This document shows positions 2,912 to 50,689 of a DNA stretch of 64,000 nucleotides, piece by piece. The stretch covers positions 1,984,001 to 2,048,000 of the forward strand of contig JAYWIR010000009.1 in assembly GCA_036172245.1 (NCBI GenBank), given 5' to 3'. Source of the DNA: Raillietiella orientalis (Eukaryota). Each line of letters begins with the position of its first letter. Within the stretch, counting starts at the first letter, position 1. The translations under genes were made by a program, and so were the position numbers. The notes beneath the pieces were generated by a model. That model searched no databases, was not told where the DNA came from, and was given only the letters and a program-made list of their open reading frames with translations.

Positions 2912-2952
2912 ATTCTCTTATATGAACATATATTATTCTCTTATATGAACAT
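2912..2952 (+). repeat. 18-bp direct repeat pair
   Basis: ATTCTCTTATATGAACAT at 2912-2929 and 2935-2952. Confidence 0.8.
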
Positions 2953-4827
2953 TCTTTTTCTCCAATAATTCCTGTAAACGAAGTCTAGGCAAGCAATTAT
3001 TAATGCGATTCTATGTAGCAGACTTTTTCAGAAGAATCCAGCACTTCCTTGGCCTCAGTTATGTTTCTCAGAATTTTAAAGCGTTCATAGTAAAGTATCT
3101 GGTACTGAATTCATGCTTATCCTTGTCGAAAATTAAAGGTTTCTTTATGAATTTTACCATCCATAAATAAAATGTATTTGTTTTTAATCTCAGTGAGAGA
3201 TCTTAAACAAGAGTTACAAAGTCGAAAATATGTTATCGCATCATTTTTAAAATAAATTCAAAAATACATGAAAGCAATCATGCCGATAAATCCAAGGAAT
3301 AGCTGAAATAAGTAACAATGGTTTGCATGCACTTAATCACTTAATGCTATTGAAACCTTTTCTTTCTGGTTTGAATTCTCAAAAGTTGTGAATGTGACAG
3401 ATAAAGTTTCATTTCAAATTAAAAGAAAGATTTTTTTTCCTATAAATGTGTACTCCGAACAAGAGTATATAAGTGAAGATGATTCTTACGATATATTAAA
3501 ACAATAAATTTTGTAAAGAAACTCATTGTAAATTTTCGTGCTTAGCGTAAGTAGTTTCTAATGAACTGTGCAACCTTGCCGTAAATTCATCACGAAAGCT
3601 TCAAAAAAATACTAAAAAACTGAACCCGGCAACTCAAATTTAAAAGATAGATCACAAACTATTATTGCAAGTCTTTCACCTTGTTTTTTCAGATCAATTA
3701 GTTTGAGCTGGTTAATTGGAAAATTTTACCCAATGTGATCCATCAATTTAATGTTATTTATTGGCAACCATGTTCATGAAATTGATTTCTGCTATTGTGT
3801 TACGCTATCCGTTTGAAATTCGTAATGTGTTTTATTATGTAAATGCAGAAATGTAACTTGTAATTATTTAATTGAGTGGATAAAAACTCAGATGGAAAAA
3901 ATATTTATTATCAAGTGACACAGTTACATTGATATTGTTTTTTAGAGAATCTGATTTCCTCTGGAATAATCAATAGGTAGGTATAATTCTAAAATTCATT
4001 TTATTAGTTTTTAGTACCAATTGGATTGCTTCATTTCAGTAAGTGTATTGTTCTTTTTGTGATTGTTCGTTGTTTTTTGAATATTTGATCACCTATTTTC
4101 CTTTAATTGTTCGAGGTCATTTTGGAAGGGTTTAATGCGGTTAACATACGGTTTCGTGCGGCATGCAGACTTCCGAACTTGAGCCTTTAAAGTGGTTTGT
4201 AATTAACTCTATTTTTTCGAAAGGAGCGAGGTGTAACTGTAATTATTAGATATATAAAGCCTACAATTGCAGTTAGCTAAAGGAAAAAGTGAACTCGAAT
4301 AAGTAATTCTTTTAATTACTCAAAAGTTGATGAGTGGTCAAGATAGCGTGTATGTTTTTCGCTGTTTAGTCAATGTGTGTTGTGAGACTAATTGAAGAGA
4401 CAGTAAGTAGGAAAAAAATGAATATTGATACAGAATCTTGTACCAATTCCCGTCAGTAATTACGCATCCACAGCATCTACCATTTATTCTGTATACAAAT
4501 TTGTCTTGATTGTCAACTAGTGTTTTCTTCAAGGAAATTCTATGTTATGTATGATAAATCATGTGCCATACCGGCACCTGATTTAATGCAGTTTTTATAA
4601 TTTTAATCACATTTTTAGCCCACACACGTACATATTGCGCATTCTTTCCAATGCATTCTGCATTTACTTCACTTTTAAAGCAACCTAATAAAAAAATAGT
4701 GCTGATGCTGGTTTCTAGATTGTCTTCCTTATAAGAAATCGATGATATAGAACACAAATGTACATGTTTATCGTGTTTTGAATAATGTATGGTTACGTTT
4801 ATGTTTTATGAACACATTTCAGTTTCA

Positions 4828-5942
4828 ATGTTCCCTACTAGTGCTGTTTTTTATACCTGGCATTCCTTGATTATCAAGATATGTGCGTTGCTGTTGTTTT
4901 TATTACTTTTGGGGAATTTACCATGTCTGGTAGCAGATCAGCCAAGCCCAGTAGTCTCTAGTATTATTCAGCTTCATGATGGCACTTGGAAGCAGATGTT
5001 AGAAGGAGAATGGATGGTAGAATTGTAATTATTCTCTTTCTTTTTTTTTGAACTGTCTTCAGGCTTATGTCAAAAGGTACTCCTAATTGCAGTTGCTTTG
5101 CAGTTTTGCTGCCTGGTGTCCAGCCTGTAAACACCTTCAACCGATTTGGGAACAGTTTGCAGTCAACTGTTCAGACACGAAAATACGTGTAGCTCAAGTT
5201 GACATCAGTGTGAATATGGGTCTTAGTGGTCGTTTCATGGTTACCTCGCTGCCTACTATCTATCAGTAGGTGGTCCTATCTTGATATGCTATTTATGGTA
5301 CTCAGTGTTCATAATGGCACATTTCGTCTATACCGTGGATCTAGGCTGCTTCCAGAACTTGTTAATTTTGTGCGAAATAATTTATGGCAGGAGATTGAGC
5401 CCATATCTACATGGAAGGCACCCAGCTCACCTATCATGATGGTTGTCAGCTGGTTCTTTGCTTTCTCCATGACATTGAGAGTAAGTCTTCTTCTTTTTTC
5501 TTACATTTCTAGATGTTATCAGAACTATCATGTAACCTTACTGGAAGTTTACAGTCTACCATCCTGGCTTTCTTACCTCATTTTTGGTCTGTTGACTATT
5601 TCATTTGGAGCATTGCTGGGTTTGGTAAGTTTGGATACCTTATCAGTAATGCCTTGTTAACATAAATAATATTTGTATGTAGATTCTCGTTTGTTGTGTT
5701 GAGTATTTCCGTCCACCTATTCCTGTACATTCAGTGGCCTGGAAAGAATCACCTACTGATGATGAGGTAAACTACCCAACCCATTCTTGAATAATTCACT
5801 AACCATGCTGCAGAAAGAGGATGATGCCAATGAGGAGGAGAAAAAGAAGACTAAAAAAAAACAGGACAGCGAACAGGAAACAGAAGAGGGGGTTATTCGC
5901 AGAAGAGGCCTAGGGGGAGGGGAAAAGACACTTAAGGAATAA
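4828..5942 (+). CDS. TMX1: Thioredoxin-related transmembrane protein (TMX1-like); 6 coding exons: 4828-5024, 5104-5265, 5306-5480, 5523-5624, 5683-5766, 5814-5942
   Basis: The spliced translation gives a hydrophobic N-terminal signal, GEWMVEFFAAWCPACKHLQPIW (CPAC active site), AQVDISVNMGLSGRFMVTSLPTIYHVHNGTFRLYRG, a C-terminal TM helix (WLSYLIFGLLTISFGALLGLILV) and an acidic/basic tail. All five introns are GT-AG and keep frame; stop TAA at 5940-5942. The ATG at 4828 is chosen because TTTCAG (4817-4822) precedes it. Confidence 0.92.
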
Positions 5943-5971
5943 ATTGTTCCTTGATACTTCTGTATTTGCAG
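5938..5971 (+). promoter_or_regulatory. Polyadenylation signal overlapping the TMX1 stop codon, followed closely by a 3' splice acceptor upstream of the U2AF1 ATG
   Basis: AATAAA at 5938-5943 contains the TAA stop. A pyrimidine-rich stretch ending TTTGCAG (5965-5971) lies 13 nt before the ATG at 5985. Confidence 0.6.
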
Positions 5972-5984
5972 GTTCACAGACACT

Positions 5985-6978
5985 ATGGCAGAATATTTGG
6001 CATCTATTTTTGGTACTGAGAAGGACAAGTACGTTGTTAGTGTGTGATTATTGTATCTTTATGTCATTCTAGAGTAAACTGCTCTTTTTATTTCAAAATT
6101 GGGGCCTGCAAACACGGTGATAAATGCTCACGTATTCACAACAAACCCACCTTCAGCCAGGTAGGTTCATTTTTTGATGTCAGCATCCAATTGAGGGCCA
6201 TGTTCCACAGACCGTGTTGCTTCAAAACCTCTACATTAACCCACAAAATTCAGCCAAGTCGGCTGATGGTTCGCACAGTAAGTGTGGGTCAGGCCTGCTG
6301 ATGACTGCGGGTCTTCCTTCTAGTTATCACCAACGTTTCTGATGAGGAAATGCAGGAACATTTTGACAATTTTTTTGAAGACGTGTTTGTGGAATGTGAG
6401 GACAAGGTGATGAAAGACATTTAGTCCTGGGGTATAATGGGGAGGGATTCCAGTATGGTGAGATTGAAGAAATGAATGTATGTGACAACCTTGGTGATCA
6501 TCTGGTGGGGAATGTATACATCAAGGTGAGTCAGTTGTTTTAGCAATTGAGAATGGAGACTGTTTGCAGTTTCGTCGTGAAGAGGATGCTGAGAAAGCTG
6601 TAGCAGATCTGAATAATCGCTGGTTTGGGGGACGCCCCATTTATGCTGAACTCAGTCCTGTAACTGATTTTCGAGAAGCATGTTGCCGCCAATATGAGAT
6701 GGGGTGAGTGAGTTTCATTATTGTTTGAGCCTTCTGTGGATAATTTCATGGTTGTTAGGGAGTGTACTCGAGGAGGCTTTTGCAACTTTATGCATTTAAA
6801 ACCCATATCACGTGAGTTGCGCAGGGAACTGTATGGCCGTAGTCGCAACAAACGCAAAAAATCACCATCACCAGTGAATAGGAATGCACGACCTAATAGG
6901 GAACGGAAGAGATCCAGATCTCGAGATCGTAATGATGCTAGGTCAAAGGAAAGGGAAAATCGCATGGGTCGATATTGA
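5985..6978 (+). CDS. U2AF1: Splicing factor U2AF small subunit (U2AF35/U2af38); 7 coding exons: 5985-6028, 6073-6160, 6211-6277, 6324-6406, 6454-6525, 6570-6703, 6759-6978
   Basis: [44 protein letters not shown] (zinc finger 1), a UHM/RRM ([35 protein letters not shown]), [27 protein letters not shown] (zinc finger 2) and an RS-rich tail. Six GT-AG introns of 44-55 nt. The first three exons (44, 88, 67 nt) match the vertebrate U2AF1 exon sizes as I recall them. Confidence 0.97.
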
Positions 6979-9900
6979 TGATTCCATATTTATGGGGACT
7001 AAAGTGGCTGCTGATTGGATGTAGTGCTACAGACTTTTCATTCACTGATCCTACATACCAATTCTGTTATAGGTGTGCATTTATCTTGGCACCCTAAGTC
7101 AAACTATTATCACTGATGTTCTTACAAAAGTTGTACTTTTGAAAAGTCCTCATTGTTTATCTGGACTGAGATGTTAATTCCATACTTCCTGGCTAATACC
7201 TCAAAACATGTCATGAGTCATCCATGTTTTCTAATGTTTATTCAAATGTTTACTTCAAAGTTGTACATTCCAGTCTATTTTCAGATGTGCCTTGTGAACA
7301 TTTGATTTTTGCCATTCATTGACTTTAAACAGATCCTTTGACATAAACCTGAGCATCATTGATGCCAAAGTTGCCTTTGTGCTCATTGTCAGCATGTTGG
7401 TCTTATTTACGTAATTAGAATTAGAATTAATGCGAGCCACGAAGCCTAACAAGCTCTACTTCGTTTTGCTTCATGTTTTTGTGCTCAAAAAGTGCTATGA
7501 ATACAAAAAGATCGCACTTATGCTGATGAGTTTGACTGATATGCTGTAGATGATTTTGGTCATCTTGAAGTTTTTAAGCATTTTAATGAGTACTTAGCAA
7601 CTACGAATATTCAACAAATAATTGTGTGATCTTGATATAAAAGTTTGAAATTCAAGAATTTTAATATGAGTGTAATTACAAAGCATATTACTAAACATGG
7701 AATTAAATGCATCACATAGTTTTATCATTTGAATGAATAATGCTTAGTATTCAGTTCTTTTTATTGATAAAAACAGACTGTTAGATCTGGGATTTGTTTG
7801 GTTGCTGGTTAGACTTGTATTTTGTTTGTATTTCTATGGAAATTCTTTTTGTTTTATGACCAGCTGAATTAAATTTTCCAGCTGCTGTTTCAAACGATTT
7901 TGAATTCAAGTGACTGATGTGAACAGTGCTGGTTTCATTTTTTTTTTCTTTTCCTCTGCTAAAGTGATTCTAATGATGTCAGTGGCTATTTATTATTTCA
8001 CCAAGCTCCCACTAGTTGTTTTGAGTGTTAAGACAAGACCAGCTCTCACACAGATTAATGTGTAATTGTACTACTCTGGTGTTCTCATTATTTTCTGTCA
8101 ATGCTTTTGTGAGCCAAAGCCCTCTGGCCCACACTGTAAATACAAATGTTTCATTGAAGGAGTAAATCTGCATTCTAAAAGATGTACTTAGATTGTAATT
8201 ATTAACAAAAAAGTGGTGTCCGTAAGCTAAATGTTTGATGGATTCTTCCTTTTCAGCTTGCCCCACTCATTTAGTTCTGTGCATTTGGACAATCTAAGAC
8301 ATTAGTCATTACATGGCCACTTTTCTGTAACACCAGGTTATGATTAGGTTATGGTGTTTTGGGTTTTCTTTGAAATATGTGTAAATTCTCGTTTTGGCAT
8401 ACCATTGTGGGTGCAATTTTCGGAAGGCTGTCGCATTTGTTACTTTCAGATTGGTTGGAACAAACATTTAATGAAACTATTCAAAAGCTTTCATTGCATT
8501 GTGGATATGTGTTTTGACTTTTACAGTATCACATTTAAGTGCAGGTTTTCCTCAACTATTTGTTGTAATTTAGGGAAACCTAATAGTACGATGGTACATA
8601 ATTTGGCCTGCTTCATTGGTGCATAAAGGTACATGCATAATGGCTGCCTTGGACTATATTTTTGCAGTCCGATTATGTGTTCGCAGCCAGTGCTTTAGGT
8701 AAAGTACGTCGTCGGAATTGAACTTTTGTTGTGATTCCTTTTTGTAACTAGTCAAGCTTTTCATGCAAAGTACCAAAAAAGGCATCCACAAAATCATCGT
8801 CTAAGAGACTGCCTTCAAGTCGTATTTTCAGTTGATTTCCCCATGCCTTCAAAAGTGAGCCATTAAAAAATTACGCCGTTTTGCTTTTCGTATTTTTGTG
8901 CCGTTCTGTTCCTCCAAGATTCAGTTTTCTTAATGAACCGCCTCCAACTAGACATAGCATATCGATGAACTTAATGTCTTCCATAAAAAGTTTGTACAGT
9001 TTGTTTTAGGACCACTTTACCGGACTTACCGAAAATTGTTCCGAGAACTTAAAAACTCAGTTGATACGTTCAAATTGTTAAGTTTTTGGATGATCTGCAT
9101 TTGATTTGAGTTTGAGGTGGCCAATCAATTTTCACAACTCAATATATACGTAAAAAGGGAATACTTTGAATTGTTAGGAACTTTCATCTGGTTTAGCTGT
9201 CATTCGTTTTTGTTATTTTTCATTATTCTTGAATACAAGGCTATTCTATATCAACATTTTAGGTTATCTTTCAGTTATTAAGAAGAAATGCCTTTTAATT
9301 TTGCAATTGCCGTTTTATCAGAAGGAATTCAATCTATTTGGATCTAATATTCAGTTTATGATCAGAATGCTGAATTTTCTTACAAAATTCAGAAAGGAAA
9401 TGTTTGCCACCTGTGAAATTTGAAATCACATACTTTACTTAAACATACTAACAAACGATTCTCTTCGTCATTACAACATTGAATTACAGCAACCATTCAG
9501 CTATAAAATTAATTCCTTCAGCTCATTAGCAGAGTTAGCCACCGTTATACACTGATAAATTTAGAAAGAGTTGAATTTATTCTTCAAATTCAATGAAGCG
9601 ATGCATTTGAGGAAACAATCGAAAATGCATTCAATTTTTCGTTAAATTTTTTGCAAGGAAGAAAATTAGGATTCAAACATTTCAGAAAAATCAGGGTAGA
9701 AATTGCAGATATCCAGCGAGAATACTGAAGCCAGAGAGGGAGGAAAAAAAATTATACTTCACATCAACTGAAGGTTTTAAGCTTCAGTTTCTTATAAAAT
9801 GCAGCATCCAAATACGTGACTTCACATGCATTTCATTTTGGTTTGCAATGTTACCTTTTACATAACGCCCCAAATTTCGTTTCATAGACTGACCCATAAT

Positions 9901-10817
9901 TCAGGAGATACTTATAGAGTAAATTGTTCAATGTAAACTGAATCAAGACAGAATATGGAAAAAAACAAAAATGTTTTGGCATTCTGTCTTTGTGTGGAGA
10001 TGTACAGAAAACCAGGACTTTGAGGAAATAAATCAAGCACTTATGCATAAATGGAAGATAATTAAACGAAAGCGTACGAAATACACGGGAGGTATTAATA
10101 TGCAACTTACATTCCAAGCATTAGTGCTTCAGAACTTAAGAAAAAAAAAAAAAATTGTTTCTTTAACGAAGTCTAAATTGGTCTGCAAAGTGTTCCAGCT
10201 AAAGCTCTGGATTAGAATCTTTCATGATATCATGTTGAACAATCGAATAAAATATATACTGATGTAACTTTCTCTCAAAGGCTTCAAGTGTTCTATGGGT
10301 GTTTAGCTCAAAACTCGTCGATCTCGAAGAGTTTTGAGATTTCCACAGTTCCACAAAAGTTTGCATTTCTAGGAGTCATGGTTGATACAGTTCATTGAAC
10401 TGCCTTGATAATGGGAAACCAACTTATGGTTTCCAGATTTTCGCGGTAATATACTCATATAAAAAATGCAAATCTTTGGAAACTATTTATGATTATTTTG
10501 ATTCACATATATTAAGCAAACTCATTTTCAAAAAGGTTCTATACTTTGGCGGAATCATTGGAAAAATGATAAGAAATAGCTTGTGAAAGACTTAAGAGTA
10601 CAAATTACATTGATGAAACCTAGAGAAATAGAATACTCATTCTCCCAAAGAAAATATAAAACCCTTGTCAGTGTGCTTTAAGACCAGTTGATAGGCGAAT
10701 ACAATCAAAACAATAATACAATGCAACAGACGTCGATTAGCCAACTGAGCACTGTCTGATTTTCCATTGTGTGACACGAACACAAGCATCATCCAGAATT
10801 TATGGTTGCGAGTTAAG

Positions 10818-10884
10818 CAGAATTCCTGCAAAGATTCCGTTCAGAATCTCCGTTTCCATCATTCAGAATTCCTGCAAAGATTCC
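10818..10884 (+). repeat. 21-bp direct repeat pair
   Basis: CAGAATTCCTGCAAAGATTCC at 10818-10838 and 10864-10884. Confidence 0.85.
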
Positions 10885-11974
10885 AGCAAGTCCATTCATA
10901 GATCACGTAAGTGACCAGACTTGCTGCTTGCATTCATGGGCTCCGTTCCAAATCAAAAGTTGAAACGATAAGCTATCTAGTTTTCCAGACATCTTGCATA
11001 CTATAAATCTTGAACAGTTTTGAATACAGTAAATTACAAGGAATTCTAAGTGCTTTTGGATACAATAGTTTATTTCAATTCTTGACGGATCGAATGTTAA
11101 GGATACTTCATTATGATGGCTTCTTTTATTGGATATTGCTTTTATTACTTAGACTCTGTGAAATGATTAAATGATTGGAGTCTAGTTATTCTTATCTCTA
11201 CTGTTGTGATCATTTAGGTCCATTGCATCGTTTTGGTCTCGGTATGTTACCACGCTCTCTGGAGTTCCCTAAACTCCACGTATGTTGTGTTGTCAAAAGG
11301 CAAGACAACACAAATTTCACGTGTTTTTATGGAAATTTATGCAAACGTGAAACCATTGATGCTTTCCACGAGTAGCATTGCATGCCTGCCTGGACTGATG
11401 GCCTCAACGTGCCGAACATGCGGTGTGCTGTATGCAATGACCTTCGAAGACCAAAGTTGATTGTGAAGAAATCTAGTAAAAAGTATCCAAAGAAATATAT
11501 TTGTGATTTAAAAAAAAATAAATCATTATTCCAGATACGAGTTCTTTTGCTTGTGGATCGCAAGTCTGCTACATTAAAAAACGAATCCATTATTTGTAAT
11601 TTCTGCGTTATAGTGCATCAGGTTTAAGCATTTTAGGAGTCAAAGTAGTGAAATACTTCAGGGAATTTTCAGCATTCGATCGCAAAGTGAAGTTACGTTT
11701 TTGTCGAGATCTGAATTGAAATCAGCCACAGAGGCTCCATGCGACTTCCTATTTGCATTTTCTTGGTGCCATCGCTTTAGTTTCTGAAGAACTTTAACAT
11801 TTCTAATGGAAATATGTGCTCATATCTGGAAAATCCACGACTCAATCTATGACAAAAGCCTCTTCATTATGATTAAAAAGACTAATCAGCCTTAAACTCA
11901 AAGAAGGTTCATTTAAGTCAGTTGAATTCTGATCTGATTGTTCTGTTGATTAGAATATCAACCATTGGTTTACA

Positions 11975-13146
11975 ATGAATGATGCAAACTTCTGGTGGTC
12001 CCTCTTGGTATGAATGTAAATTGTGCCAGAACTTCAAGTTCAGTCAATTGTTTTAGGCTGGTGGTGTAGCTGGATCTGTAGTTGATCTTTCATTGTTTCC
12101 TTTGGATACCATCAAAACCAGACTTCAAAGTGGCAAAGGTTTTTTTGCATCAGGAGGATTTAAGGGAATTTATTCAGGAATTTCTCCTACTCTTTTAGGT
12201 TCAGCACCTGGTGGTAAGTTTTATCAGGAACTCTTAACTTATTTTTTTTCTTAACTAAGTAAACACTTGAATGTGCTATTAGCTGTAAACTCCCATTAAT
12301 TGTGAAAATAAAACATTAAATTGGAAGCAATAATTCATATTCATCATTAACATTGCCTCATGGTTTCAGCTGCCATTTTTTTTTGCACATATGATGCATT
12401 CAAGAGATTGTTCGAATTTCAAATTTCAAATACTAAACAGTACTTAACACACATGTTAGCTGCATCAATTGGGGAAGTGGTAATTGAGATTTCTAAGTAT
12501 TCCATTGCAATTGTACAGAATGCTTGTTTTGTCAGAGTTCCAGTTGAAGTAATAAAGCAACGGAAACAAGTATACAGACATATGAAAATAGCAACAATTG
12601 TAAAGAATACATGGATAGAAGAAGGTGTCGCTGGATTTTATAGAGGCTATTGTATTACTATCTGTAGAGAGATTCCATTCTCTCTTATTCAGTTTCCACT
12701 TTGGGAAGCTCTATTGACATTTCGCCAGTACCAAACTAAAAAAACTATATCATCTTGGGAAGCTGCAATCTGTGGAGCAGTGGCAGGTGCTTATTTCAAG
12801 ATGCATACAGTAATAATTGTTTCATATTTACTAGGAGGTGTAGCTGCTGGATTAACCACACCTTTAGATGTAGCTAAAACAAGGAAGATGTTGGCAGGCT
12901 CAGGAAGCACATTTGCTATTGGTTCTTTAGTTCATGTGTTGAGATTATTAGTAGCTGAGAATGGATTACATAGGTAATCAGCTGCTTATAGACTGCATCA
13001 TTAATATTGCAGTTAGTTTATTTTCAGGAATTGTGCCTCGTGTTTGCTGGATGTCTATAGGTGGATTCATCTTTCTAGGCTCCTATACCCAGGCACAGCA
13101 TTTCCTTGATTCATACCTTAAAACAAAAAGTCAGTATCCAGAATAG
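11975..13146 (+). CDS. SLC25A26: Mitochondrial S-adenosylmethionine carrier; 6 coding exons: 11975-12007, 12057-12213, 12370-12479, 12519-12786, 12835-12973, 13017-13146
   Basis: Three mitochondrial-carrier signatures ([35 protein letters not shown]) plus SAM-carrier-type segments [33 protein letters not shown] and [27 protein letters not shown] introns keep frame; stop TAG ends at 13146. Confidence 0.93.
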
Positions 13147-14275
13147 CCCTGGCATGTTCAATACATTTATTCTGAACAGGGTTCCGTTTTTTTTCCGTAT
13201 TCTTTTGGTACACAAAAAAGTAAAAAATTGAAAAACCTTCAACACACATTAGAACCTTATTTTACATTCCAACTGCTTTATATTCATATGATTCACTGGA
13301 GATTCAGCCAACTTTATGGTGAATTCTTGCAGCATGCTTTAAGTTTTTATGTTTTAAGATGTAGCATTAACCACTCTAGGTTCTTATATACCCTAACAGT
13401 AGTACGAATGTATTAGTATAAGTGAATCAAACTGAAAGCTGATGCATTAGTCATTCCTCACCAAGTCATTCCCATCTGCCAACTGGTTTGGTAAACCAGT
13501 CTTTTCATATCAACATATTTCTTTGTCATGAAATACTTTTTTTCGTCAATATTTCATTTCTTAACACAGCTCTTTCAGGAAGTCTCATTTCCAAAGTTTG
13601 GTGCATCCTTACATTCTTGTGCGTGACAGTTTTGCGTTTCGTGGTTTTCTGAATGAATACAAAAATTTCGAGAGTGCCCGATAAATTAATTTAGATCAAA
13701 ACTATATCTGCAAACACGGAAAGTTTTCTGTGCGCGCCTTGAATTGTTTTAAATGTCTTGTGATCCGTATACCTCAGAATGCATCCATACCTTACCACGC
13801 AGGAATCCATGATTACACTTAGGAATTCAATAAAAATTTTTATCAAAATTCCTCCCCCCATTCTAGCACAAAAGTTTCACATGCGAGTGATATTTGCAAA
13901 TTAAGTAATTTATTATTATTATTGCTCCCATAATAATAATCCATTTCAACTAACAGATGCAATAAATGTGCATTTCGTTTCTGTTTTTTTCAATGTGATT
14001 ATATGCTTCTCAGGGAACGCATGCTATATGTTACGCTGATGGTCGGTCTTCAAAAGTGATTACACTTTAACCGTAGGTGTGTTTCTGCAGTGAAAAAACT
14101 GAACCTCACAGTTTGTTTAGTTATCGTCCTCCATCGTGAATGAGTGCTCCGAGGATCGGACCTGTGAAAAGTGAAAGTGAAATGCTTAAACAAACAAAAC
14201 TGAGGTTTTCTCTGCTCCTTTTGCATTTCACCGAGTGCTGCATAGGAAAGGGAGGAATGCCTCGTTTGCCTCTGG

Positions 14276-14612
14276 AAACGCAGCCAAAACAATACCAAGT
14301 TTTTCAAATCCAAATTCCTCCAGCCCATTTCTTATGTATTGAAAGGGACCACTAAATATCTGCTGCTGGCCTTCTGTTCTGAACGCTAAAGCCACTTCAG
14401 CGAATTTTGCTGACACACCAAAAAAGTCCATGATCACCATCCAAGGTACCACTCCTGGTCCTCTTATAGAAACTGCAGTTGCAACACCAGCAACAGTTCC
14501 AAGACCTACCTCCCTTGAAAGTGCAGTCACAAATACCTGAAAATGTGGCCATCGTGATGATTTGTGCCATATTTTTCCACACAGAGTAGCAAACGCATGC
14601 TTAAACATCCTC
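14276..14612 (-). pseudogene. Bacterial sodium:alanine symporter (AgcS family) N-terminal fragment (Rickettsiales/Wolbachia-like nuclear insert)
   Basis: HFQVFVTALSREVGLGTVAGVATAVSIRGPGVVPWMVIMDFFGVSAKFAEVALAF..FSGPFQYIRNGL matches the AgcS signature FQAxxTALxxxVGxGNIAGVAxAIxxGGPGAxFWM...KFAExxLA...GGPxYYIxxGL. Confidence 0.85.
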
Positions 14613-14779
14613 AGATGTTCAACACATGCCTTTGCTGATGCTGCTAAAACAGGAGATATGGCGGTGGTAAAAAAAATAAACCCTGAAGCGGAACTTCTTA
14701 TTACATCTACTAAGCTTTTTGAAGACGCTATATCTCCACCCATCACTCCAAAAGTCTTTGATAATGTGCCTTGAATAAA
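14613..14779 (-). pseudogene. hemA: Bacterial 5-aminolevulinate synthase fragment (Rickettsiales/Wolbachia-like nuclear insert)
   Basis: The minus strand reads FIQGTLSKTFGVMGGDIASSKSLVDVIRSSASGFIFFTTAISPVLAASAKACVEHL. This is the ALAS PLP-lysine motif (GTLxKAFGxxGGYIA) followed by the IRS..GFIFTT motif. No introns. Confidence 0.8.
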
Positions 14780-14799
14780 CGCACTCCAGCGTTCCTAAA

Positions 14800-15900
14800 G
14801 TCACTTGGTCGTAGACTCGAAGCTCCGTAATCCTGCGCTCCTTGGAAACTCCGCTGGATTCGGAAGGGACTCGAGGGTTTATAAGAGTTGCTCAGCCGCG
14901 AAACGGAACTCAGGGTGAACAGGGAGAAGTCGTCCGTGGTGCCAATTGGTGCGGCGTGGGCAGGACAGCCGGACTGGATCCGCTTAACGATACTCACGGG
15001 TAGGTACTTGGAGTATCTCAACGTCCCGAAGGGAGAATTGTGCATTGCAGAAGCCTAATACGTCTGTCTTCAGAAAAGAGAGCAGGCTCAGGGCTCGTTT
15101 CAAGCAGGCAATTTTTAGTTTCCCATCGGACCGCGCCGTAGAACACTTTCGTGGCCCCTCTCCATCGCTCCCTCCTTTTTGTTTGTACCCCAACGGAGAA
15201 GATTGGAAAGCGGATAACGGACCAACTTAGGATCGCCCTCTGGAGCACGGGGAGGTCAGCACTTGAAAGACTTGTGAGCTCCGCTTAGGGAGGGCAGTCT
15301 CGGCCTTCTGACGTTTGAGCGAATGGAGCTCCAGTTACAGTTGAGGTTACTTGCCCTCGTGGCCAAGTTGTAGAACACCAACTGTTGCGACCCTGCACGC
15401 ATTCTCATCGGGCAAGGAACAGGCAACGTGGGACTTGCATCCTTCCATAGGCGCCGTCGATGCAACATCTTGTACTGAGGACTGCAGCTTCGATGGGTGG
15501 CAACATTCAGCAGAACTCGGCTAACCAGCCCATCAGCAACAGCTGGATCTCCTACTGCCCCGAGAACGGTAGTGCCTGGCTGCAGGAACCATCGCACGTG
15601 AGCAAAGCACAACGAGCGATGTGCGGAACAGGCATAGCGTCTGCTCCACGGTTTCTATAACAACTGCTCTTTCCGCGAGGTCCTGCAACACCCCACGAAG
15701 AGTGCGGCGGCAAGAAAACCTCCCTCACCGCAGCGCTGCCCTCCGAGCGAAAATATGAACAATAGTCTGGCGGCAAGATGAGAGGGTAGTATGCAAATCT
15801 CCTTGAGTCGTGTTACAGCCCGCGGGACCTTGCGGCAAGTGGAGCTGACCATGCTGGAACGGAACTAAGGCAACTTGCCCTCGCCCTCTCGAGGGAGGTC
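14800..15900 (+). mobile_element. Degenerate L1/Tx1-like non-LTR retrotransposon fragment (RT C-terminal half and downstream region)
   Basis: ELRVNREKSSVVPIGAAWAGQPDWIRL...RYLEYLNVP and LKDL*APLREGSLGLLT align with the RT-bearing copy at 57830-58250. NSWISYCPENGSAWLQE aligns with segments near 49490 and 59515. Confidence 0.7.
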
Positions 15901-16899
15901 GACCAGCTTGGCTTTCTTTCGCAAAGAAAGCCAAGCTGGCTGCACTCCAAAATACTCGAGGTTGGAGCAGGAGCTAGTGCTGTTAAGCCTTTTTGATCGT
16001 GCAGCCAACGCAGCTCTAGACGGAACCGCTCCCGACTCCTGCAAGTCCAGGAGCATGCCCGCACCCCGAAGGAGCAGCTTTTAGAAAGCATCTAATGAGA
16101 CCAGGCGACAGAGCGGCAGCATCAGAAGAATGACAAAAAGACGGTGGTCGACGTCGGCTGACGTTCCGGGTCACGGGCACGGCAAGTGAGCCAGAGTCTC
16201 CTCGAGATTCGGATGCACCCACACGAAGTAGGCGCTGTCATCAAGGGACGCCGTCTGTGAGTTTCTGCCTCATGCGAATCCCCAGCTCACGTACTGGCGG
16301 CTGCAAACCATGTTCGGATTCTGCAAAACGTTGGGAACGCTTTCGCCTTCGGCTCATCTTTGCAACCCCGCTGTGGTGTGCCTGTCGTGTTTTCTTGCGG
16401 AAACAGAGTGATCGGCCGACCCGCCTCTTTCGCATCTCCCCACAGATGCTGTGGGGTCCTCAGGCGCAAATAGGAAAGCTTCTTCCCACGAGGTGGAAGA
16501 TGCTGACTACCACTACCAGGAAAAGCACGCGGATCCCTTGTTCTCTCATCGTGCGGATGGGACACAACTTGGGGAAGCGCCGTCCTTCGAAAAAGTTCGG
16601 CTAAGCGGAGAGCTTCTCTCGGAGGCAAGGTCTCATCGTAGCTGCTTTAGTTGAGTAGGGAGACGGCACCTCTGTCACCTCTTCCGACCAGCTTCTCGAG
16701 AAACTGTTTTGATTGCTACTCTTCGAGGCTTGGTTTCTCCAGCTTGCTCTTACCATCTGCTTGGCTGCCGCGCATAAGGGGAACGAAACGAACGTTCCAC
16801 GCTGGCTGAACTTCCCATAAAGGGGCCTCTTGAAAACCCCGAGTCGATCGGCGTGTGGCACCAACGAATGCTGACCATCGCTTTGTGTGATCTTGAATG

Positions 16900-17540
16900 G
16901 AGAAGTCGGCCAGCAGCGCTGGCTGGCTGCTCGCACGTCGGACCATGCGCACTACGTTGGAAAGTCTCTGTGGCTTGAGGCGTGTACGCGCGCGCACCCT
17001 TCCGAAGCATTTGCTTGGTGAGGGCAAAGAGTGCTCGGCCCATTCTGGGAATCGCATGGCTGCGGGCGCTGCTGAACCACCACAAAACTGCTGAACTGCT
17101 TGGCACTCGTGATCAGACGTCGAAGAGCGTCATGCCTTCGTAGCGAGAATGAACAAGAGGAGCCTCCAGGACTCGGTGGAGTCGAAGGGCACAATCGATT
17201 GCCCGTTGCCAAACAGAATCCGTGTGCGGGTGTCACGAAAGGACATCCTTCCGAGAGGAACGCGGGGTTCGAGTGAGCTGCGAAGGCACCCTTCTGGTTC
17301 GAGGACAAGCTTGCCGGTTGTGGCCAACTAGGGACCGTGCCTGCCACGCACTTCGCGAACGTATGCTTTCGCTGGCAGGTGCGTACTCGTGTGTGCTGTG
17401 GCGCGCCAGCTGGATGGCGACAGTCGCCCTCTGGAAGGCGAACAGGAGCACTGACCTACCTCTTGGCGTTCGCTTTGCACGTCACGCACGCACCTCCCAT
17501 ACCTGGCAGGCGGACGCGCTGAGCACTGCTTAAGCCTGCA
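16900..17540 (+). mobile_element. Possible decayed L1-clade ORF2 C-terminus (zf-RVT/CCHC region)
   Basis: The fragments HNRLPV, CRLWPTRDRACHALRER and VLWRASWMATVALWKAN follow the order H.rLP / CxxC..E..H..C / alWk.RN typical of L1-clade ORF2 ends. The match is weak. Confidence 0.35.
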
Positions 17541-18189
17541 GGGCACGCAAACGTAACCGGCGGCGAGTGTTCGTCAAGAAAACAGTCCACCGCGCCTGAG
17601 CCGTTGAGCACTGGCGCAGGCAGGCTCACAAGTCCAAGCGCCTGCCACCAACCATGCTCAAAAAGGCGGTGGCCATCTTGTCCTTCCAGGAAGTTGCTGA
17701 TAGCCAATTCTGAATGCCTGTGAAGATCAGGGGAAGGAAGGTAGACGACTCCGTTGGCAAAGGCCTTTAATGCTTGGCGTTTGCAGATCGAGCGAGGACA
17801 AGGATGGAACGATGGTGGGCAACGCGCAGACATCGAGCGGAGAGGTCAGGCTCCTCGCTACACCCGTAAGGCTCATGACTACGAATACGCCGGACACAGA
17901 ACTTCAAGATGAACATCGTGCGACTGCGTTGGCTCGACGTCGTTATCGTTTCGTTTTGCTCTGTGTTCCTAATCTCCTCTCTTTTTCGTTCCGTGACATT
18001 GGCGGCTCTTGTATGTTGATCCCGGTACATATGAAGCGAACCCAAAGACCCGAAATGCCTCTTTTTTTTGTTGTCCCCCTCCACTATCCTGTTTTGCATG
18101 TCAGTGGATCTCCCACTGAGCTTCTTAAGTATTCAAATGGAAACTGGTTCCCAATTTGTTTATTTTATAAAATGGCAATCCAAGGTAAC

Positions 18190-18540
18190 AGAGTTTTGTG
18201 ATGCAAGGCAGGTAGCCAACAGGAAGTTATCTGTTGTATTTTGTACACGACAGTTTTGATTGCAAGACATGGGTGGAGCCACGTAACATGAAGGGCATGC
18301 GTGATGTATTCCACAAGGCGAGTTTAGCTGGAACAAGGTATACATTTGGGCCTCTGGAGCGCACCTTCAGTGCAGCAAGGAATGAGGTACACTGTCAAGT
18401 CTCATTAGGTCATAAATACTGTAAGCGAAGAATTGCCTTTCCTCGAGAACCCGATACCTGGATTTGTGCCTGGTTATAAGGATTTGGGAAAACGGCAGTG
18501 CGCTTTCAAACGAAGGAGCAGTGCTTTTACAGAACGCTTG
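18190..18540 (+). pseudogene. Possible decayed tandem Kunitz-type (BPTI) domain pair; mirrored at ~48555-48905 (-)
   Basis: EFC..EPTGSYLLYFVHDSFDCKT...GTRYTFGPLER and HCQVSLGHKYC.RRIAF..EPDTWICAWL*GFGKTAVRFQTKEQC resemble Kunitz spacing (TGxC..YF.FD; G.N.F.T.EQC), with several cysteines lost. Confidence 0.3.
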
Positions 18541-20619
18541 GCGCGAGGGGTATGTCGATGTATATTCGAACGCCATGCAAGAAGGCGAGACGCTCCGGAG
18601 AAGGTTACGAGATTAAAAAACTGAGATGCCCATGGACGGATGCGGACGATCAGCGGAAGAAGAAGATAATAAATGCTTACGCCGTGAGGCATAGAAGCGG
18701 TTTCGAAATATCTGATAGTTGATTTCCAAACGTGCAGGGACATCGAATGGATCTGTAGAAAACAAAAATAATAACAACTATTTGACATGTGCCCCGCCGT
18801 TTGTAATTCTTATTTTCAAGTATATAGAGGCATAAGTGATTAGCAATAAATTGATTTGTCGACTCGATCGTCCGGCATATCAGGAAGGGAGGTGATGGTT
18901 TGTTTCCAATGGTGGATTATGGCGCCGATCCGTGTCCCAGTTTGCAGAGACGACGACATGGATTGTGTTGAAAAACTTGGTGCAACTGGCTGGGATCAAG
19001 TACCGCTCTCGGGTTGGGCTTACCTCAGCATCTTCAAGTCTTAAGATGATTTCAGGAGCTTCGGATGCTGGAATAACCAGCTCTCTTTTTTTAAAAAAAA
19101 AACTGGGAAGGATGCTGTAATTTCATGGAAATTTTGATTCTGACCTACGCCTACTTTCCCCATATCCAGTGTGCATGCAGAGCCACTCTTTCTAAAACCA
19201 TCACTCCCACTGTTAAAGGGTCAAACGCATGCTGTCTGGTAATCACATCAGCAGAGTCACAAACTGCGTTACCATCTTCATCTTTGTAGACGACTGCATT
19301 TGAACACAAGCCTGCTGGAAAGAGTCTCCTAGCCAGCAGCTTGCAAAGTGGCGACTCCAGAATGGCTACAGTTATCAGGAATCTATTGCAAAGTCACCCA
19401 GAAGCCAATTTTGTGCCTTGTTCAGCAACGTGCCATCAAAGATTTCACTGTTTTGCTGAGAACTGGATGAATTGCACCAGGAAGCGGCACGTTCCACCTA
19501 ATGACGCATCGAAAAGTGCGCACGAAGATGCGCAATCCCTAATCAGCTTCCAAAACCAACGGAGTCAAATCAGAGATCGAACCTGTCGGTTCGTCTCCTT
19601 AGGAATATCGCAGTGGCTCTATCCATAAACCCCTCGATCTGAAGATGCGCGCGCGCCTTCAGCCGCAAGTCCGGCACCCGGGAACCACTCATCAGCAAAA
19701 TTGGCAATACACTGGCTTCCAACGCAGTCGAAGGCAGGAAAAACAGGAGCAAGGTGTTCATGTATCACCCATCCATCAATATGCATCCATCCGCATCTTC
19801 TCCATACGGATATGTGCACTTTTATTTTGTTTGAGCTTCCGGGATTCTTTATCTCGGCGCTGGCGACTTTCAAACCAGTCCTCATGGACGAAGTGGATCG
19901 ATTTGCCACGCAAGTCAGAGAAGAAATCCATTCAACCATTGCTGGGACAGAAAGCGTACCAACGAGATTGAGGACAGCAACCGCCAGACAACTGCGAGCG
20001 AATCGTCAAATCTCGAGAGACCTTTCGCGTAAGAAATCGCAAGTGTCACGTAAGAAGAATCCGGAACGTACATTCCAGCCGGCATGACGAGAACGCGTAC
20101 GGGGACAAATCGCTGAACAACTTCCTGATCGAGGCAAGGAAAATGCGCCACCCTGGTAGCAGTCATTCCGCCTCATCCGGAAATCACTGCGATTCGTCGA
20201 CCATCGTTTCATCCGGCGGGATGGCGCGTGTCGCAGATGTGGACAGTGCAATGAGACGCCTCTTCACTTGGCAAACCACAGCGCGACCGCCTTCGTCCAC
20301 TACGCTGCCGATCACGGTGCGGTAACTCTTCCGTGTAACTTTTGGGTTATTCTAAATGAGTTTGTAGCTTTTCGCGATTGTTTCCTTAGTTTTGTTTAAA
20401 AGTGTGTTGTCACAAAATCTGTATGTACACGCGGTCTTTCCACAGTTGTGGTCGTACAAGGGTGACACAGAACCTGACGGTCTGATGGTCTGTTCTGAAT
20501 TATTCCATTACTTGAATGTTTAAAGAATAACAATGTCGACATAATTAAATCTATTCAATTCTATCACAAACTATCCTTGCTGCATTCTCTTATATTCGCG
20601 CACTACATGAGCCATGATG

Positions 20620-23600
20620 ATTCCTCAGAAGCCCGCTCGCGGTACGGCACGCCTGAATGCCCCTTCCCCTTTCAACTCGCTATTGTCTTCTCCACCCAAT
20701 TTATCCCCAACTGCCTGCCCCCTTTTCCCTCAAGGAAAGGGTTTCCTTTGTTTGCCTCTCCGGGAAAAAGTGTCTCCCAGAAGGAGAAGGGCTGCCTTCG
20801 GGCAATGGCGGCTCCTTAGATAAACTGGGCACTCTTCTCGTCGTTCTCTGGCAGAATCAGGGCTGCCAAATACCGATACATATATCTGCCTCCATACCGG
20901 CTTTGATGGACAGCGCTGATCTATGCCGGTGGAGGAACATGACATCCCTGAATGCGCTGATGCCCGCTTGTGGGTTCCCCTCCCTACTCCGCTGCCTCTG
21001 ATGTGCCCTCTGTATGGATGCCATGGGTGCTCGGTGGCCTCGACCCCAGCGGAACGCAGACGCAACATGAAGCGCCATCTAGTTCGAACTCATGACATCA
21101 GTGTGACTGGAATGGCGACATTCTGCGGGACCTGCCGATCCCCTATACCTCATCCTGCACCCACGGTACACGTTTGCAGGAAAAAAGCGATCCCATTATC
21201 CGCCGCGGTTCGCATGCTGAAGTTCAGGTGCCCCCGTTGCCCCAACCGCTTCCACGAAAGAGGCTTACTGAAGAGGCATGTGCGCATCGTGCACAAGGAG
21301 CAGAATAACCTCTCCTTTGACTGTGCTGACGAACAAGCCTGGATACCACTGTCGGACCCTGTGCCTGGTGCCTCCCCTTCCTCGGTGACAGCTTTCGGCG
21401 CCAGGAGCGATGACGATCATTTAATCACCAGCCTGGCGCAACTCGGGCCTTCCCCAAGCGTGTCGAACAGTTCCGTCCTTACCGTCGCTTCCCCCTCACA
21501 AACTGACATTGCTGCCCTGTCTGACGCGGCGGATGTGCTCTTGGGAGCCGGTGAATTCGGGAGCACTGCAACAGTGGCGTGTTCCGGGAGGAGCGCAATA
21601 AGACTCTGATGGTGAATACCACGAGACGGTGCTTGCCGATAGTGCAGGAACCCACGACCCTTGACGACTCTAGCCAACACGTCGTCTCTTCCGTGCCCTC
21701 CCTCGAATAGCTGACGAGCTGGGTGTCGGACCTCGGGATTAACGTACCACCGAGTGCACCCCCAGTCTCCAAATCTTACATCCGTGAGGTTTCCCTGAGG
21801 CTTGCTTCCCCAAGTGACACTTTCCCCCACCCGGAGCCGCCGGTCGTGCCCATCGATGGAGAAGCTTTCAGCCCTAACCATCCCTACCGACGCCCATCGA
21901 ACCGGCCCCGCCACAACCGAATACACCGGATGTTTCTCTTCTTGGCCACGATGCGCTTCAGGTGCTTTTTCCCATGCCAAAGTACATACACTGCATTGAA
22001 GAGGGATGAGGCTGGGAATCCACAACGGCGTACGGGAGCCGTACCCTACAATCGCTCGATCGCCACTTGAAGCACGTCCCCAAGCTGGCCATTAAAAGGC
22101 ACTCCTTGGCGTGTCGTCGTTGCCTCCTTCCGGTGACCGTGCCCACGCATCTCCATAGATGTGTAAAGATAGCTCCAGAAGCCACCGAACCGAACACCTC
22201 CTGGGCCCAGTTCCTACAGCCACACTGCTCGCTCGCCTTCCCCAACGAGAAGGGGTTACAGAACCACCTGAGATGGCATCAAATGGTGAAACGCTCGCTC
22301 CAACGTTCACGCCCCACATCAGTGCTGGCTCTTCCCCCAGTGAAGGATCCCCCCCCGTTCCGACTATCCCACTAGCGAACAGATTCGAACGACTTGGCCA
22401 ACTCCCGCCTACGGAGCATACCCCTCGATCCTATGAGTGGGCGATTGGGAAGGATGGAGTACTCACCAGGCAGTGAACCTCGGCCTCCGCCTGTGGCATC
22501 CGCTTACCCTCATCGGCGCTCGTTTGCTCGCGGAAAAGCGCCTTCTCAGCCACAATGTCGACGGAGGAAGCATTACCTTACCCCAACCTCTCGACCACAT
22601 GCCATGGCCCCGTCCCTACGACAGACATTTTTCGGCAGAAAAGCCATGCGCTTACCCAATGTTCACCTATCACGAGCGCTTGACGACGTTGTGCAGCTGC
22701 AGCCGAGCCTTGACACATGGAAGAGGACGTTGCTGGCTCTCCAAGAGTATCGTCGACGCGTCCAGAGCACTGTTTCTGAACCCCACAAGAAGGGTCGGGG
22801 GGTTGCACGCACCGCACTTCCACAGAGGAATACACCTGGGAGGGCCCGCCTTCAACTTGTATACAGGACTTAACGGAGGCGAGCAATAAGGGAAATCCTT
22901 GGACATCACCACGGTCGGTGCACTGTCGACTCTGCGGGTATGCACGCATACCTCAGTGACATCCACTCTCCGAAGCACATGGACAGCTCCCAACTGGACA
23001 GAGCCCCGCCCCCCCCAATCGAACCCTTGGACCTCCAACCACTCCTCCCTGACGAAATCCTTGAATGTCTTGCGAAGTGCGAGGGAACACTGCCCCTGGT
23101 GAGGACCGCATTGCATACGCCACACTCCTAAGGGATGATCCTCAGGCAGCCGTCTTGACACGGCTATATGGTGCCTGCCTGACCCATCGCCGATTCCCTA
23201 AGGAATGGAAAGACAGCTTTTCCATCCTCATCCCGAAGAAACAATACCCGCGAAAAGATCTCCTTAGCGACTTCCGCCCCATCGCGATTGGCAACACGAT
23301 GGGGAAAGTGCTTGCCAAGTGCTTGGCGAAGAGACTTCGGGACTGGAACATGAGCAGTGGCGTGATCGGTCTTCGGCAGAAGGGCTTCCTCCCCTTCGAT
23401 GGGGTACCGGAGAGCAATTTCACCCTCTCTACCCTCAATGACGAAGCCCGCATGCAACGGAAGCCGCTGTGCATTGCCTGGGTTGATTTGAAAGATGCGT
23501 CCTCCTTCCTCCCCCATGACTATCTACTTGCATCTCTTTTTCACGCAAGGCTGGTTCATCACTTCACCGATCTTATCCGCGACCTTTACGATGGATCTGT

Positions 23601-25620: not shown

Positions 25621-26089
25621 AATCAGCTGATTGAAGAGATTAAGCCTTAGCGATTCAATTCACGAGCCGCCGCAAATACCGTTAGCCCTATTGATGCCTC
25701 TAGCAGAGGAAACGATGTAAATCCAGAAAGCGATAAAGACTATATCCTCGAAGTGAGTCGGCACATTCGCCCAATTTGCCGGAGGCAAGCCCACTGCAAG
25801 GGTGCTTCCAACGCTGCAGGAGCATCCTCCATTCCTGCCGCCTCTTTCCATCCTGCAACCGCTCCGCAGCAGGGCACGTCCCTACAGCCCAACCAGTTGG
25901 CAGCCTGAGGGGAAAACCACACCGATTCTCGGAGGTATTAGCAACCCACGGCCTCGAATGTCGACCCCACCCCCGGACCCACGCGCACCTCTCACCTCTC
26001 AACGTAGCATTCACCGCATTCATCTCCGCAACTTCAAGACAAATCCGCAGCTTCCACGGAGGCGAAATTTCCGTGCGAGTTTTCGATTT

Positions 26090-34792: not shown

Positions 34793-34829
34793 ATGTATAT
34801 AAATGTATATATATATATGTGTGTATATA
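34793..34829. repeat. Short compound (TA)n/(TG)n microsatellite
   Basis: atgtatataaatgtatatatatatatgtgtgtatata. Confidence 0.7.
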
Positions 34830-50666: not shown

Positions 50667-50689
50667 TCCTGTGCAACGAATACCTGTGT

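What the first reader, a model, noticed from the sequence alone, without database searches (positions are those of the whole stretch)
14228..14794. Endosymbiont-like nuclear insert that fuses hemA and an alanine symporter in one open reading frame
Seen: a stop-free minus-strand frame of about 188 codons. Its first part is the PLP-lysine region of ALA synthase (GTLSK.FGVMGG.IAS). Its second part, after ...CVEHL|RMFKHAF... near 14613, is the N-terminal signature of an AgcS symporter. It has no introns and sits between host AT-rich DNA and a LINE relic. Known: AgcS is a prokaryotic family, and ALAS of this type occurs in alpha-proteobacteria including Wolbachia, which often transfers DNA to arthropod nuclei. 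Inference: two non-adjacent pieces of a Rickettsiales genome were joined, possibly at ATCT microhomology, during or after integration.
Basis: partly seen in the sequence, partly recalled or inferred. Interest (0 to 1): 0.78.

Follow-up and report, generated by a model that had tools for sequence, protein, structure and literature searches.

The report
Decayed mosaic Wolbachia DNA fragment
A roughly 500-base scrap of Wolbachia DNA, stitched from pieces of two distant bacterial genes and now decaying, sits beside an animal gene; it is an ordinary fossil of endosymbiont-to-host DNA transfer, not a working gene.

Summary
Window 14228-14794 (minus) is a stop-free frame of 188 codons. It carries a 5-aminolevulinate synthase (hemA) fragment joined to an AgcS alanine:cation symporter fragment. 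Both pieces match Wolbachia best: 84-88% protein identity for hemA and 73-78% for AgcS, and about 90% DNA identity outside gaps.

In 60 Wolbachia-level genomes the two genes are never neighbours. Of 56 genomes with both by DNA, 41 have them on one contig, at 17.7 kb or more apart. The mosaic inference is therefore supported.

The open frame is not evidence of function:
- The insert has four private indels (+3, +1, -7, -6). The +1/-7 pair puts about 11 codons out of the Wolbachia frame.
- The 25 private substitutions look neutral: 4 synonymous, 21 non-synonymous.
- The insert's tree branch is about 7 times the median.
- Simulation gives roughly a 10-20% chance of staying stop-free.

The proposed ATCT microhomology is absent; only 1-3 bases can be shared at the joint. 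The "LINE relic" flank was not confirmed. No other Wolbachia piece was found in the window. Junction-spanning reads could not be tested.

Verdict: a decayed nuclear Wolbachia transfer, a new member of a known kind, of low to moderate interest.

The parts
14228..14794 (-). Stop-free frame of 188 codons. The first Met is at residue 18. It extends 16 nt and 51 nt beyond the bacterial-like DNA into the flanks.
14610..14778 (-). hemA (5-aminolevulinate synthase) fragment, matching about codons 241-295 of a 406-codon Wolbachia frame. It includes the PLP-lysine motif. Identity to the closest genome (G742) is 89.6% outside gaps.
14279..14611 (-). AgcS (alanine/glycine:cation symporter) N-terminal fragment, matching about codons 78-192 of a 492-codon Wolbachia frame. 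Identity to G736/G743/G742/G745 is 90.1% outside gaps.
14610..14612 (-). Internal hemA|AgcS joint. At most 1-3 bases of possible microhomology; there is no ATCT on the AgcS donor side.
14545..14576 (-). Stretch read out of the Wolbachia AgcS frame. It is bounded by a private +1 insertion (14576) and a private 7-base deletion (between 14546 and 14545), and covers about residues 74-84 of the frame.
14381..14382 (-). Site of a private 6-base in-frame deletion in the AgcS piece.
14674..14676 (-). Private 3-base insertion in a T run of the hemA piece, adding one Phe.
12057..13110 (+). Host gene with short introns: a mitochondrial S-adenosylmethionine carrier (Mito_carr). It ends about 1.2 kb from the insert, on the other strand.
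14795..18172 (.). GC-rich (about 55%) flank of unknown nature. It is not repeated in the window and has no Pfam or NCBIfam domain.

Best explanation
This is a non-functional nuclear Wolbachia transfer (a 'nuwt', or genomic fossil) of about 500 bp in an animal genome.

Two short pieces came from distant places in one Wolbachia genome: the middle of hemA and the 5' part of one AgcS paralogue. They were ligated end to end and integrated about 1.2 kb downstream of the host's mitochondrial SAM-carrier gene. Ligation was most likely by end joining at a chromosome break, with little or no microhomology.

Since then the insert has evolved neutrally, gaining about 25 or more private substitutions and four indels. 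The 188-codon open frame is a leftover: both pieces happened to be joined in phase, and by moderate luck no stop has arisen yet.

Shown here: the Wolbachia origin of both pieces, their non-adjacency in sampled donors, the private frameshifts, the neutral substitution pattern and the long branch.

Inferred: a single integration event, the end-joining mechanism, nuclear residence, and lack of function.
For: Origin:
- Best protein hits are Wolbachia for both halves.
- By DNA, 60 of 60 genomes of the Wolbachia-level genus match the AgcS piece (71-87% by BLAST) and 56 of 60 match the hemA piece (76-89%).

Mosaic:
- In 41 of 41 genomes with both pieces on one contig, they are 17.7 kb or more apart. 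In 15 further genomes they are on different contigs.
- In the 60 fetched loci (each match with 1.5 kb on either side), hemA-part hits occur only in the 30 hemA loci and AgcS-part hits only in the 30 AgcS loci.

Same age and donor:
- The two pieces are equally diverged from the closest genomes, at 89.6% and 90.1% identity.
- Their nearest genomes overlap: G742, G736, G745 and G717.

Decay:
- Four indels (+3, +1, -7, -6) are absent from all 30 Wolbachia compared for each piece.
- The +1/-7 pair shifts the frame over about 11 codons.
- The 25 window-private substitutions fall 13/7/5 on codon positions 1/2/3, with 4 synonymous, 21 non-synonymous and 0 stops. Random change would give 22-25% / 71-74% / 4%.
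- Among Wolbachia, 115 of 157 polymorphic columns are third positions.
- The window's end branch is 0.17 against a median of 0.023.

Open frame by chance:
- P(no stop) is 0.38, 0.26 and 0.15 for 25, 35 and 50 random substitutions. An out-of-frame 10-codon stretch is open 55% of the time.

Host context:
- An intron-bearing SAM-carrier gene lies 1.2 kb away on the same contig.
- Flanks on both sides are not Wolbachia-like.
- No other Wolbachia DNA was found in positions 1-64000 against 5 genomes per call.

Precedent: short, inactivated, neutrally evolving Wolbachia fragments co-assembled with host genes are described in PMC4046930 (passages read) and PMC3849323 (abstract passage).
Against: - No read-level or PCR evidence for the two host junctions could be obtained; no run was listed.
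- The private-substitution count under-samples third positions, because bases already seen in any Wolbachia are not counted as private. This exaggerates the non-synonymous share.
- Tree placement inside Wolbachia is unresolved; no well-supported set holds the window. Part of the long branch could therefore be divergence of an unsampled donor lineage rather than decay in the host.
- An open frame of 188 codons surviving four indels is somewhat lucky, at roughly 0.1-0.2 by my simulation. That leaves a little room for selection.
- The donor's own gene order is unknown.
Confidence: 0.82

Rival explanations
1. The hemA-AgcS junction already existed in the donor Wolbachia, as a rearranged or pseudogenised stretch, and one contiguous piece was transferred.
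For: Gene order varies widely among the sampled genomes: hemA-AgcS distances range from 17.7 kb to over 1 Mb in linear coordinates, so rearrangement is common. Nothing in the window dates the junction relative to integration.
Against: None of the 60 genomes shows the junction. hemA-part hits occur only in hemA loci and AgcS-part hits only in AgcS loci. hemA was found by DNA in 56 of 60 genomes, with long open frames wherever listed. The junction cuts both genes mid-way. No representative protein among the best 150 of 3319 hits matches both halves; all but five best stretches start at residue 50 or later (the earliest at 28) and all lie in the N-terminal AgcS-type part of the hit. The junction 25-mer has 0 matches in metagenome contigs.
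Confidence: 0.07
2. Assembly artefact: reads from a live Wolbachia infection, or from contamination, were wrongly joined to host DNA.
For: No read evidence was obtainable. Wolbachia sequence is filed under arthropod names in public data, for example the Glossina austeni, Vollenhovia emeryi and Trichonephila clavata entries.
Against: A live bacterium would contribute intact genes. Here both genes are mid-gene stubs of 169 and 333 bp. They carry frameshifting private indels and a neutral substitution pattern, are about 10% diverged from every sampled genome, and are flanked on both sides by non-Wolbachia DNA within one contig. Producing that by misassembly would need three chimeric joints within 500 bp.
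Confidence: 0.04
3. The frame is an expressed, selected chimeric host gene or exon, domesticated from bacterial DNA.
For: 188 codons remain open despite four indels, and the +1 and -7 indels restore the frame. The PLP-lysine motif and an N-terminal stretch of the symporter are recognisable.
Against: Only 58 of about 400 ALAS residues and about 115 of about 490 AgcS residues are present. Both score far below the family cut-offs: 64.5 against 338.55 bits, and 76.4 against 272.65 bits. About 11 codons are out of frame. Private changes are 21 non-synonymous to 4 synonymous. Openness is expected by chance at roughly 0.1-0.2. Neither fragment could form its fold alone; this last point is inference from established knowledge of fold-type-I PLP enzymes and multi-helix transporters.
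Confidence: 0.04

Closest known systems
Nuclear Wolbachia transfers (nuwts) and 'genomic fossils' of Wolbachia, e.g. in Dictyocaulus viviparus (PMC4046930, passages read) and Brugia malayi (PMC3849323, abstract passage read)
   Same: A short Wolbachia-derived fragment co-assembled with host genes. It carries inactivating indels and evolves neutrally. DNA identity to living strains is in the mid to high 80s percent; PMC4046930 reports 84.5% on average, and here it is 82-89% by BLAST.
   Different: This is a single isolated 500-bp piece in 64 kb, rather than hundreds of kb. It is a two-gene mosaic that still reads as one open frame. The host is an animal whose SAM carrier is only 38-48% identical to any listed protein, and it was not identified further.
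Mosaic organelle-DNA insertions (NUMTs/NUPTs) formed by end joining of non-contiguous fragments (recalled, no paper read here)
   Same: Non-adjacent donor fragments are ligated with little or no microhomology and inserted at one chromosomal site, followed by neutral decay.
   Different: The donor is an endosymbiotic bacterium, not an organelle. The joining mechanism is inferred here, not shown.
Wolbachia 5-aminolevulinate synthase (HemA, TIGR01821) and the Wolbachia AgcS/AlsT amino-acid carrier (TIGR00835, PF01235)
   Same: These are the source genes. Over the retained stretches, protein identity is 84-88% (hemA) and 73-78% (AgcS).
   Different: Only 14% and about 23% of the respective proteins are present. 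The AgcS part is frameshifted, and neither is a family member in any functional sense.

Membership tests
Nuclear Wolbachia transfer (nuwt / Wolbachia genomic fossil) | The sequence is closest to Wolbachia rather than to host or other bacteria. | tested here: met
   (top hits Wolbachia). (60 of 60 and 56 of 60 genus genomes matched by DNA). In an even sample of 401 alphaproteobacterial genomes the best AgcS identity was 47% and the best hemA identity 68%.
Nuclear Wolbachia transfer (nuwt / Wolbachia genomic fossil) | The fragment is physically linked to host nuclear DNA on both sides. | tested here: inconclusive
   In the assembly it lies between an intron-bearing SAM-carrier gene and a non-bacterial GC-rich block. 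Read support across the junctions was not obtainable.
Nuclear Wolbachia transfer (nuwt / Wolbachia genomic fossil) | There are signs of residence outside a living bacterium: truncation, inactivating mutations and relaxed constraint. | tested here: met
   Mid-gene stubs, four private indels including a frameshifted stretch, 21 non-synonymous against 4 synonymous private changes, and an end branch of 0.17 against a median of 0.023.
5-aminolevulinate synthase (TIGR01821) | A full-length fold-type-I PLP enzyme of about 400 aa that scores above the curated cut-off. | tested here: not met
   Only model positions 240-297 of 402 are matched, at 64.5 bits against a cut-off of 338.55.
5-aminolevulinate synthase (TIGR01821) | The PLP-binding lysine motif. 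| tested here: met
   GTLSK is retained at residues 9-13. That this lysine is the one binding PLP is recalled, not tested here.
AgcS / Na_Ala_symp (TIGR00835, PF01235) | A complete multi-helix transporter of about 420-490 aa that scores above the curated cut-off. | tested here: not met
   Only model positions 23-135 of 424 are matched, at 76.4 bits against 272.65. About 11 codons are out of frame and 2 codons are deleted.

The most novel reading that the evidence does not exclude
The insert is a relic of a past infection by a Wolbachia related to the supergroup-F-like clade, in an animal lineage that is poorly represented in databases. In addition, the still-open chimeric frame is transcribed and translated as a small host-specific protein, for example a membrane peptide made from the AgcS helices with a bacterial leader. 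That would make it an early-stage de novo gene born from bacterial DNA.
Probability: 0.05. Interest if true: 0.6.

Novelty: new member of a known kind. Interest (0 to 1): 0.25.

Why it matters
- The insert is a clean, small example of how endosymbiont DNA enters animal chromosomes: non-contiguous pieces ligated almost bluntly and then left to decay.
- It records that this host lineage once carried, or still carries, a Wolbachia related to the clade that includes supergroup-F-type strains.
- It is a caution for annotation. The 188-codon open frame with two good domain hits would be called a 'fusion protein' by a gene finder, although it is a pseudogene.
- It does not open a new biological question by itself.

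Tried and rejected
- Read support and expression: the look-up of sequencing runs on window 13500-15500 listed no run of any kind, and no RNA holder was listed. Read laying was therefore never used.
- Own genome: none is held for this window, so copy number and other inserts in the genome could not be examined.
- The search for related loci in genome contigs returned only one Sphingomonas hemA locus, L001.
- Reaching Wolbachia genomes took several blind attempts:
  - class of G001, 401 genomes, best AgcS identity 47%;
  - order of G033, 1 genome;
  - order of G188, 11 genomes;
  - order of G180, 151 genomes, none at E<=1e-25;
  - order of G138, 151 genomes, which gave G694 and G708 at 75%.
- 'LINE relic': 91 frames of 110 aa or more across the window and 53 frames of 60 aa or more in 12955-18476 were scanned against Pfam. 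Reverse-transcriptase hits appear only at 23065-23694 and 43400-44029, and none in 14795-18172. NCBIfam on 41 frames gave nothing.
- ATCT microhomology: rejected on the base-level comparison.
- The same fusion elsewhere:
  - 0 matches of the junction 25-mer in metagenome contigs;
  - no hit spanning both halves among the best 150 of 3319 representative proteins;
  - nothing in earlier findings by place, sequence or words.
- Rfam: no RNA family anywhere in the window.
- Host identity: the SAM-carrier query matched only at 38-48% identity. The best named hits are ostracod, amphipod, springtail, shrimp and brine shrimp entries. That is too distant to name the host beyond 'an animal, probably an arthropod'.
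- Supergroup: no well-supported clade holds the window. The 'F-like' label rests on G736 hemA being 99.75% identical to an entry named wCfeF, and G732 AgcS being 98% identical to an entry named for the Mansonella perstans symbiont. That these strains belong to supergroup F is recalled.

Full report
**1. Observation**

The minus strand of window 14228-14794 is free of stops for 188 codons. Profile searches confirm both signatures.
- Residues 6-64 match 5-aminolevulinate synthase (TIGR01821, model positions 240-297 of 402, E 7.9e-18). They include the GTLSK lysine motif.
- Residues 60-171 match the AgcS amino-acid carrier (TIGR00835, model positions 23-135 of 424, E 1.9e-21; Pfam PF01235, E 1e-20).
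- Both scores lie far below the curated whole-protein cut-offs: 64.5 against 338.55 bits, and 76.4 against 272.65 bits. These are fragments, not genes.

**2. Origin**

With the AgcS part (residues 62-180) as query against longer proteins, 37 hits passed.
- All 22 entries carrying a bacterial name are Wolbachia, at 63-76% identity.
- Two further entries are filed under insect names (Glossina austeni 73%, Vollenhovia emeryi 78%). The others are unnamed.

With the hemA part (residues 1-66), 115 hits passed.
- The top-scoring rows are named Wolbachia (one Rickettsiales MAG and one entry filed under a spider among them) at 80-88%.
- Lower hits are other bacteria or unnamed, at 55-77%.
- No named hit is an animal mitochondrial ALAS.

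In an even sample of 401 alphaproteobacterial genomes, the best identities were only 47% (AgcS) and 68% (hemA).

After several blind attempts I reached two genomes at 75% AgcS identity, and then 60 genomes of their genus. By DNA, 60 of 60 match the AgcS piece (71-87%) and 56 of 60 match the hemA piece (76-89%).

**3. Extent**

DNA searches of the window against five of these genomes at a time covered 1-20000, 20001-40000, 40001-60000 and 59001-64000.
- They found only 14279-14611 (AgcS) and 14610-14778 (hemA).
- The other matches were two weak hits to the neighbouring AgcS paralogue inside the AgcS piece and three 38-39-base chance-level matches at E 0.009.
- NCBIfam found nothing bacterial in 41 frames around the insert.

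The insert is thus an isolated mosaic of about 500 bp. Its GC content is 42%, like the donor pieces (44%). The flanks are 36% on one side and 55% on the other.

**4. Are the two genes neighbours in the donor?**

No, in every genome sampled.
- Of 56 genomes with both pieces by DNA, 41 carry them on one contig. The smallest linear distance there is 17,714 bp (G719), then 18,988 and 30,103 bp.
- In the other 15 genomes they are on different contigs (coordinates).
- In the 60 fetched loci (each match plus 1.5 kb on either side), the hemA part hits only the 30 hemA loci and the AgcS part only the 30 AgcS loci.
- The gene next to this AgcS copy, about 1.4 kb away on the same strand, is a second AgcS paralogue at 37-46% identity.
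- The joint also cuts hemA at about codon 295 and AgcS at about codon 78. Even with adjacency, the joint would have needed a deletion.

**5. The joint**

At base level the window reads ...GAACATCTG|AGGATG.... Wolbachia hemA continues ...CATCTAAAATCA.... Wolbachia AgcS is preceded by ...CAACATAAGG....
- At most 1-3 bases (A, or TAA if the window's G is a later change) can be shared.
- A nearby AACAT occurs on both sides but out of register.
- The proposed ATCT microhomology does not exist on the AgcS side.
- This is what blunt or near-blunt end joining would give. The mechanism is inference.

**6. Decay**

Relative to all 30 Wolbachia sequences compared for each piece, the window alone has four indels:
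- +3 in a T run at 14674-14676;
- +1 at 14576;
- -7 between 14546 and 14545;
- -6 between 14382 and 14381.

The +1 and -7 together restore the phase. Between them about 11 codons (residues ~74-84 of the frame) are read out of the Wolbachia frame, giving KIWHKSSRWPHF where Wolbachia has KYDTNHHDGHITHF.

Twenty-five substitutions are private to the window, meaning the base is seen in none of the 30 Wolbachia.
- They fall 13/7/5 on codon positions 1/2/3.
- They are 4 synonymous, 21 non-synonymous and 0 stops.
- Random change in these sequences would give 22-25% synonymous, 71-74% non-synonymous and 4% stops.
- Among the Wolbachia, by contrast, 115 of 157 polymorphic columns are third positions.
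- Caveat: this way of counting under-samples private third-position changes.

In maximum-likelihood trees the window's end branch is 0.17 changes per site against a median of 0.023 (20 rows concatenated, 31 rows AgcS only).

**7. Is the open frame remarkable?**

I used the closest genome's two pieces as a proxy ancestor.
- Random substitution leaves the frame stop-free in 38%, 26% and 15% of 20,000 trials for 25, 35 and 50 changes.
- 55% of out-of-frame 10-codon stretches are open.

The open frame therefore needs no selection to explain it.

**8. Donor lineage**

The nearest genomes by DNA are G745, G742, G743, G736 and G717 for AgcS (90% outside gaps) and G742 for hemA (89.6%).
- The two pieces being equally diverged and sharing nearest genomes fits one donor and one event.
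- No well-supported clade holds the window. The best grouping has 86/88 support.
- G736's HemA is 99.75% identical to an entry named for strain wCfeF. G732's AgcS is 98% identical to the entry for the Mansonella perstans symbiont.
- That these strains belong to supergroup F is recalled, so 'F-like donor' is only a lead.

**9. Host context**

- A mitochondrial SAM-carrier gene with short introns occupies 12057-13110 on the plus strand.
- Its best listed relatives are only 38-48% identical. The top named ones are crustaceans and springtails. The host is an animal, probably an arthropod, without close relatives in that database.
- The GC-rich block 14795-18172 is unique in the window and has no recognisable domain. 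'LINE relic' is unconfirmed.

**10. Comparison with what is known**

Short, inactivated, neutrally evolving Wolbachia fragments co-assembled with host genes are well described.
- PMC4046930 (passages read) reports fragments at 84.5% mean identity to living strains, with frameshifts and stops, judged to be relics of a lost symbiosis.
- PMC3849323 (abstract passage) reports 227 transferred genes and gene fragments in Brugia malayi.
- Ligation of non-contiguous donor pieces is familiar from organelle-DNA insertions (recalled).

This insert is a new member of that kind. It is not a member of the ALAS or AgcS families in any functional sense.

**11. What remains open**

- Read-level proof of the host junctions. 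No run could be listed, and no genome is held for the window.
- Whether the fusion arose in the donor or at integration.
- Whether the frame is ever expressed.
- The same fusion was not found elsewhere. There were 0 matches of the junction 25-mer in metagenome contigs. No hit spans both halves among the best 150 of 3319 representative proteins. Nothing appeared in earlier findings.

**Verdict**

The object is a decayed mosaic nuclear Wolbachia transfer, of low to moderate interest.

Noticed in passing
window 18173-28587 and 38508-48921: Two arms of 10.4 kb form an inverted repeat at 99.58% identity, separated by about 9.9 kb. Each arm carries a reverse-transcriptase fragment (RVT_1 at 23065-23694 on the plus strand and 43400-44029 on the minus strand) and a strongly strand-skewed low-GC stretch (26-27 kb and 40-41 kb). 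This could be a recent inverted duplication of a retroelement-bearing segment, or an assembly palindrome.
   Followed up: partly
window 53968-54417 (+): A frame with a weak match to the CAP N-terminal domain (PF21938, E 2.9e-6, 27.9 bits against a cut-off of 27). It may be an exon of a host cyclase-associated-protein gene.
   Followed up: no
Wolbachia-level genomes, e.g. G717:C1:608672-610462: In most of the 60 genomes a second AgcS paralogue (37-46% identical to the window's AgcS part) lies about 1.4 kb from the first on the same strand, forming a tandem pair. The window's fragment derives from only one of the two.
   Followed up: partly
proteins P0001, P0002 and P0099: Wolbachia-type AgcS or HemA sequences are filed under animal names (Glossina austeni, Vollenhovia emeryi, Trichonephila clavata). 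Some appear as multi-domain 'fusion' predictions that string together neighbouring bacterial genes. These are either other transfers or contamination in those assemblies.
   Followed up: no
window 1-2000: A GC-rich block (55-62%) at the window start holds several long stop-free frames on both strands with no Pfam match. Its composition resembles the other GC-rich blocks, which alternate with 30-36% GC host DNA.
   Followed up: no
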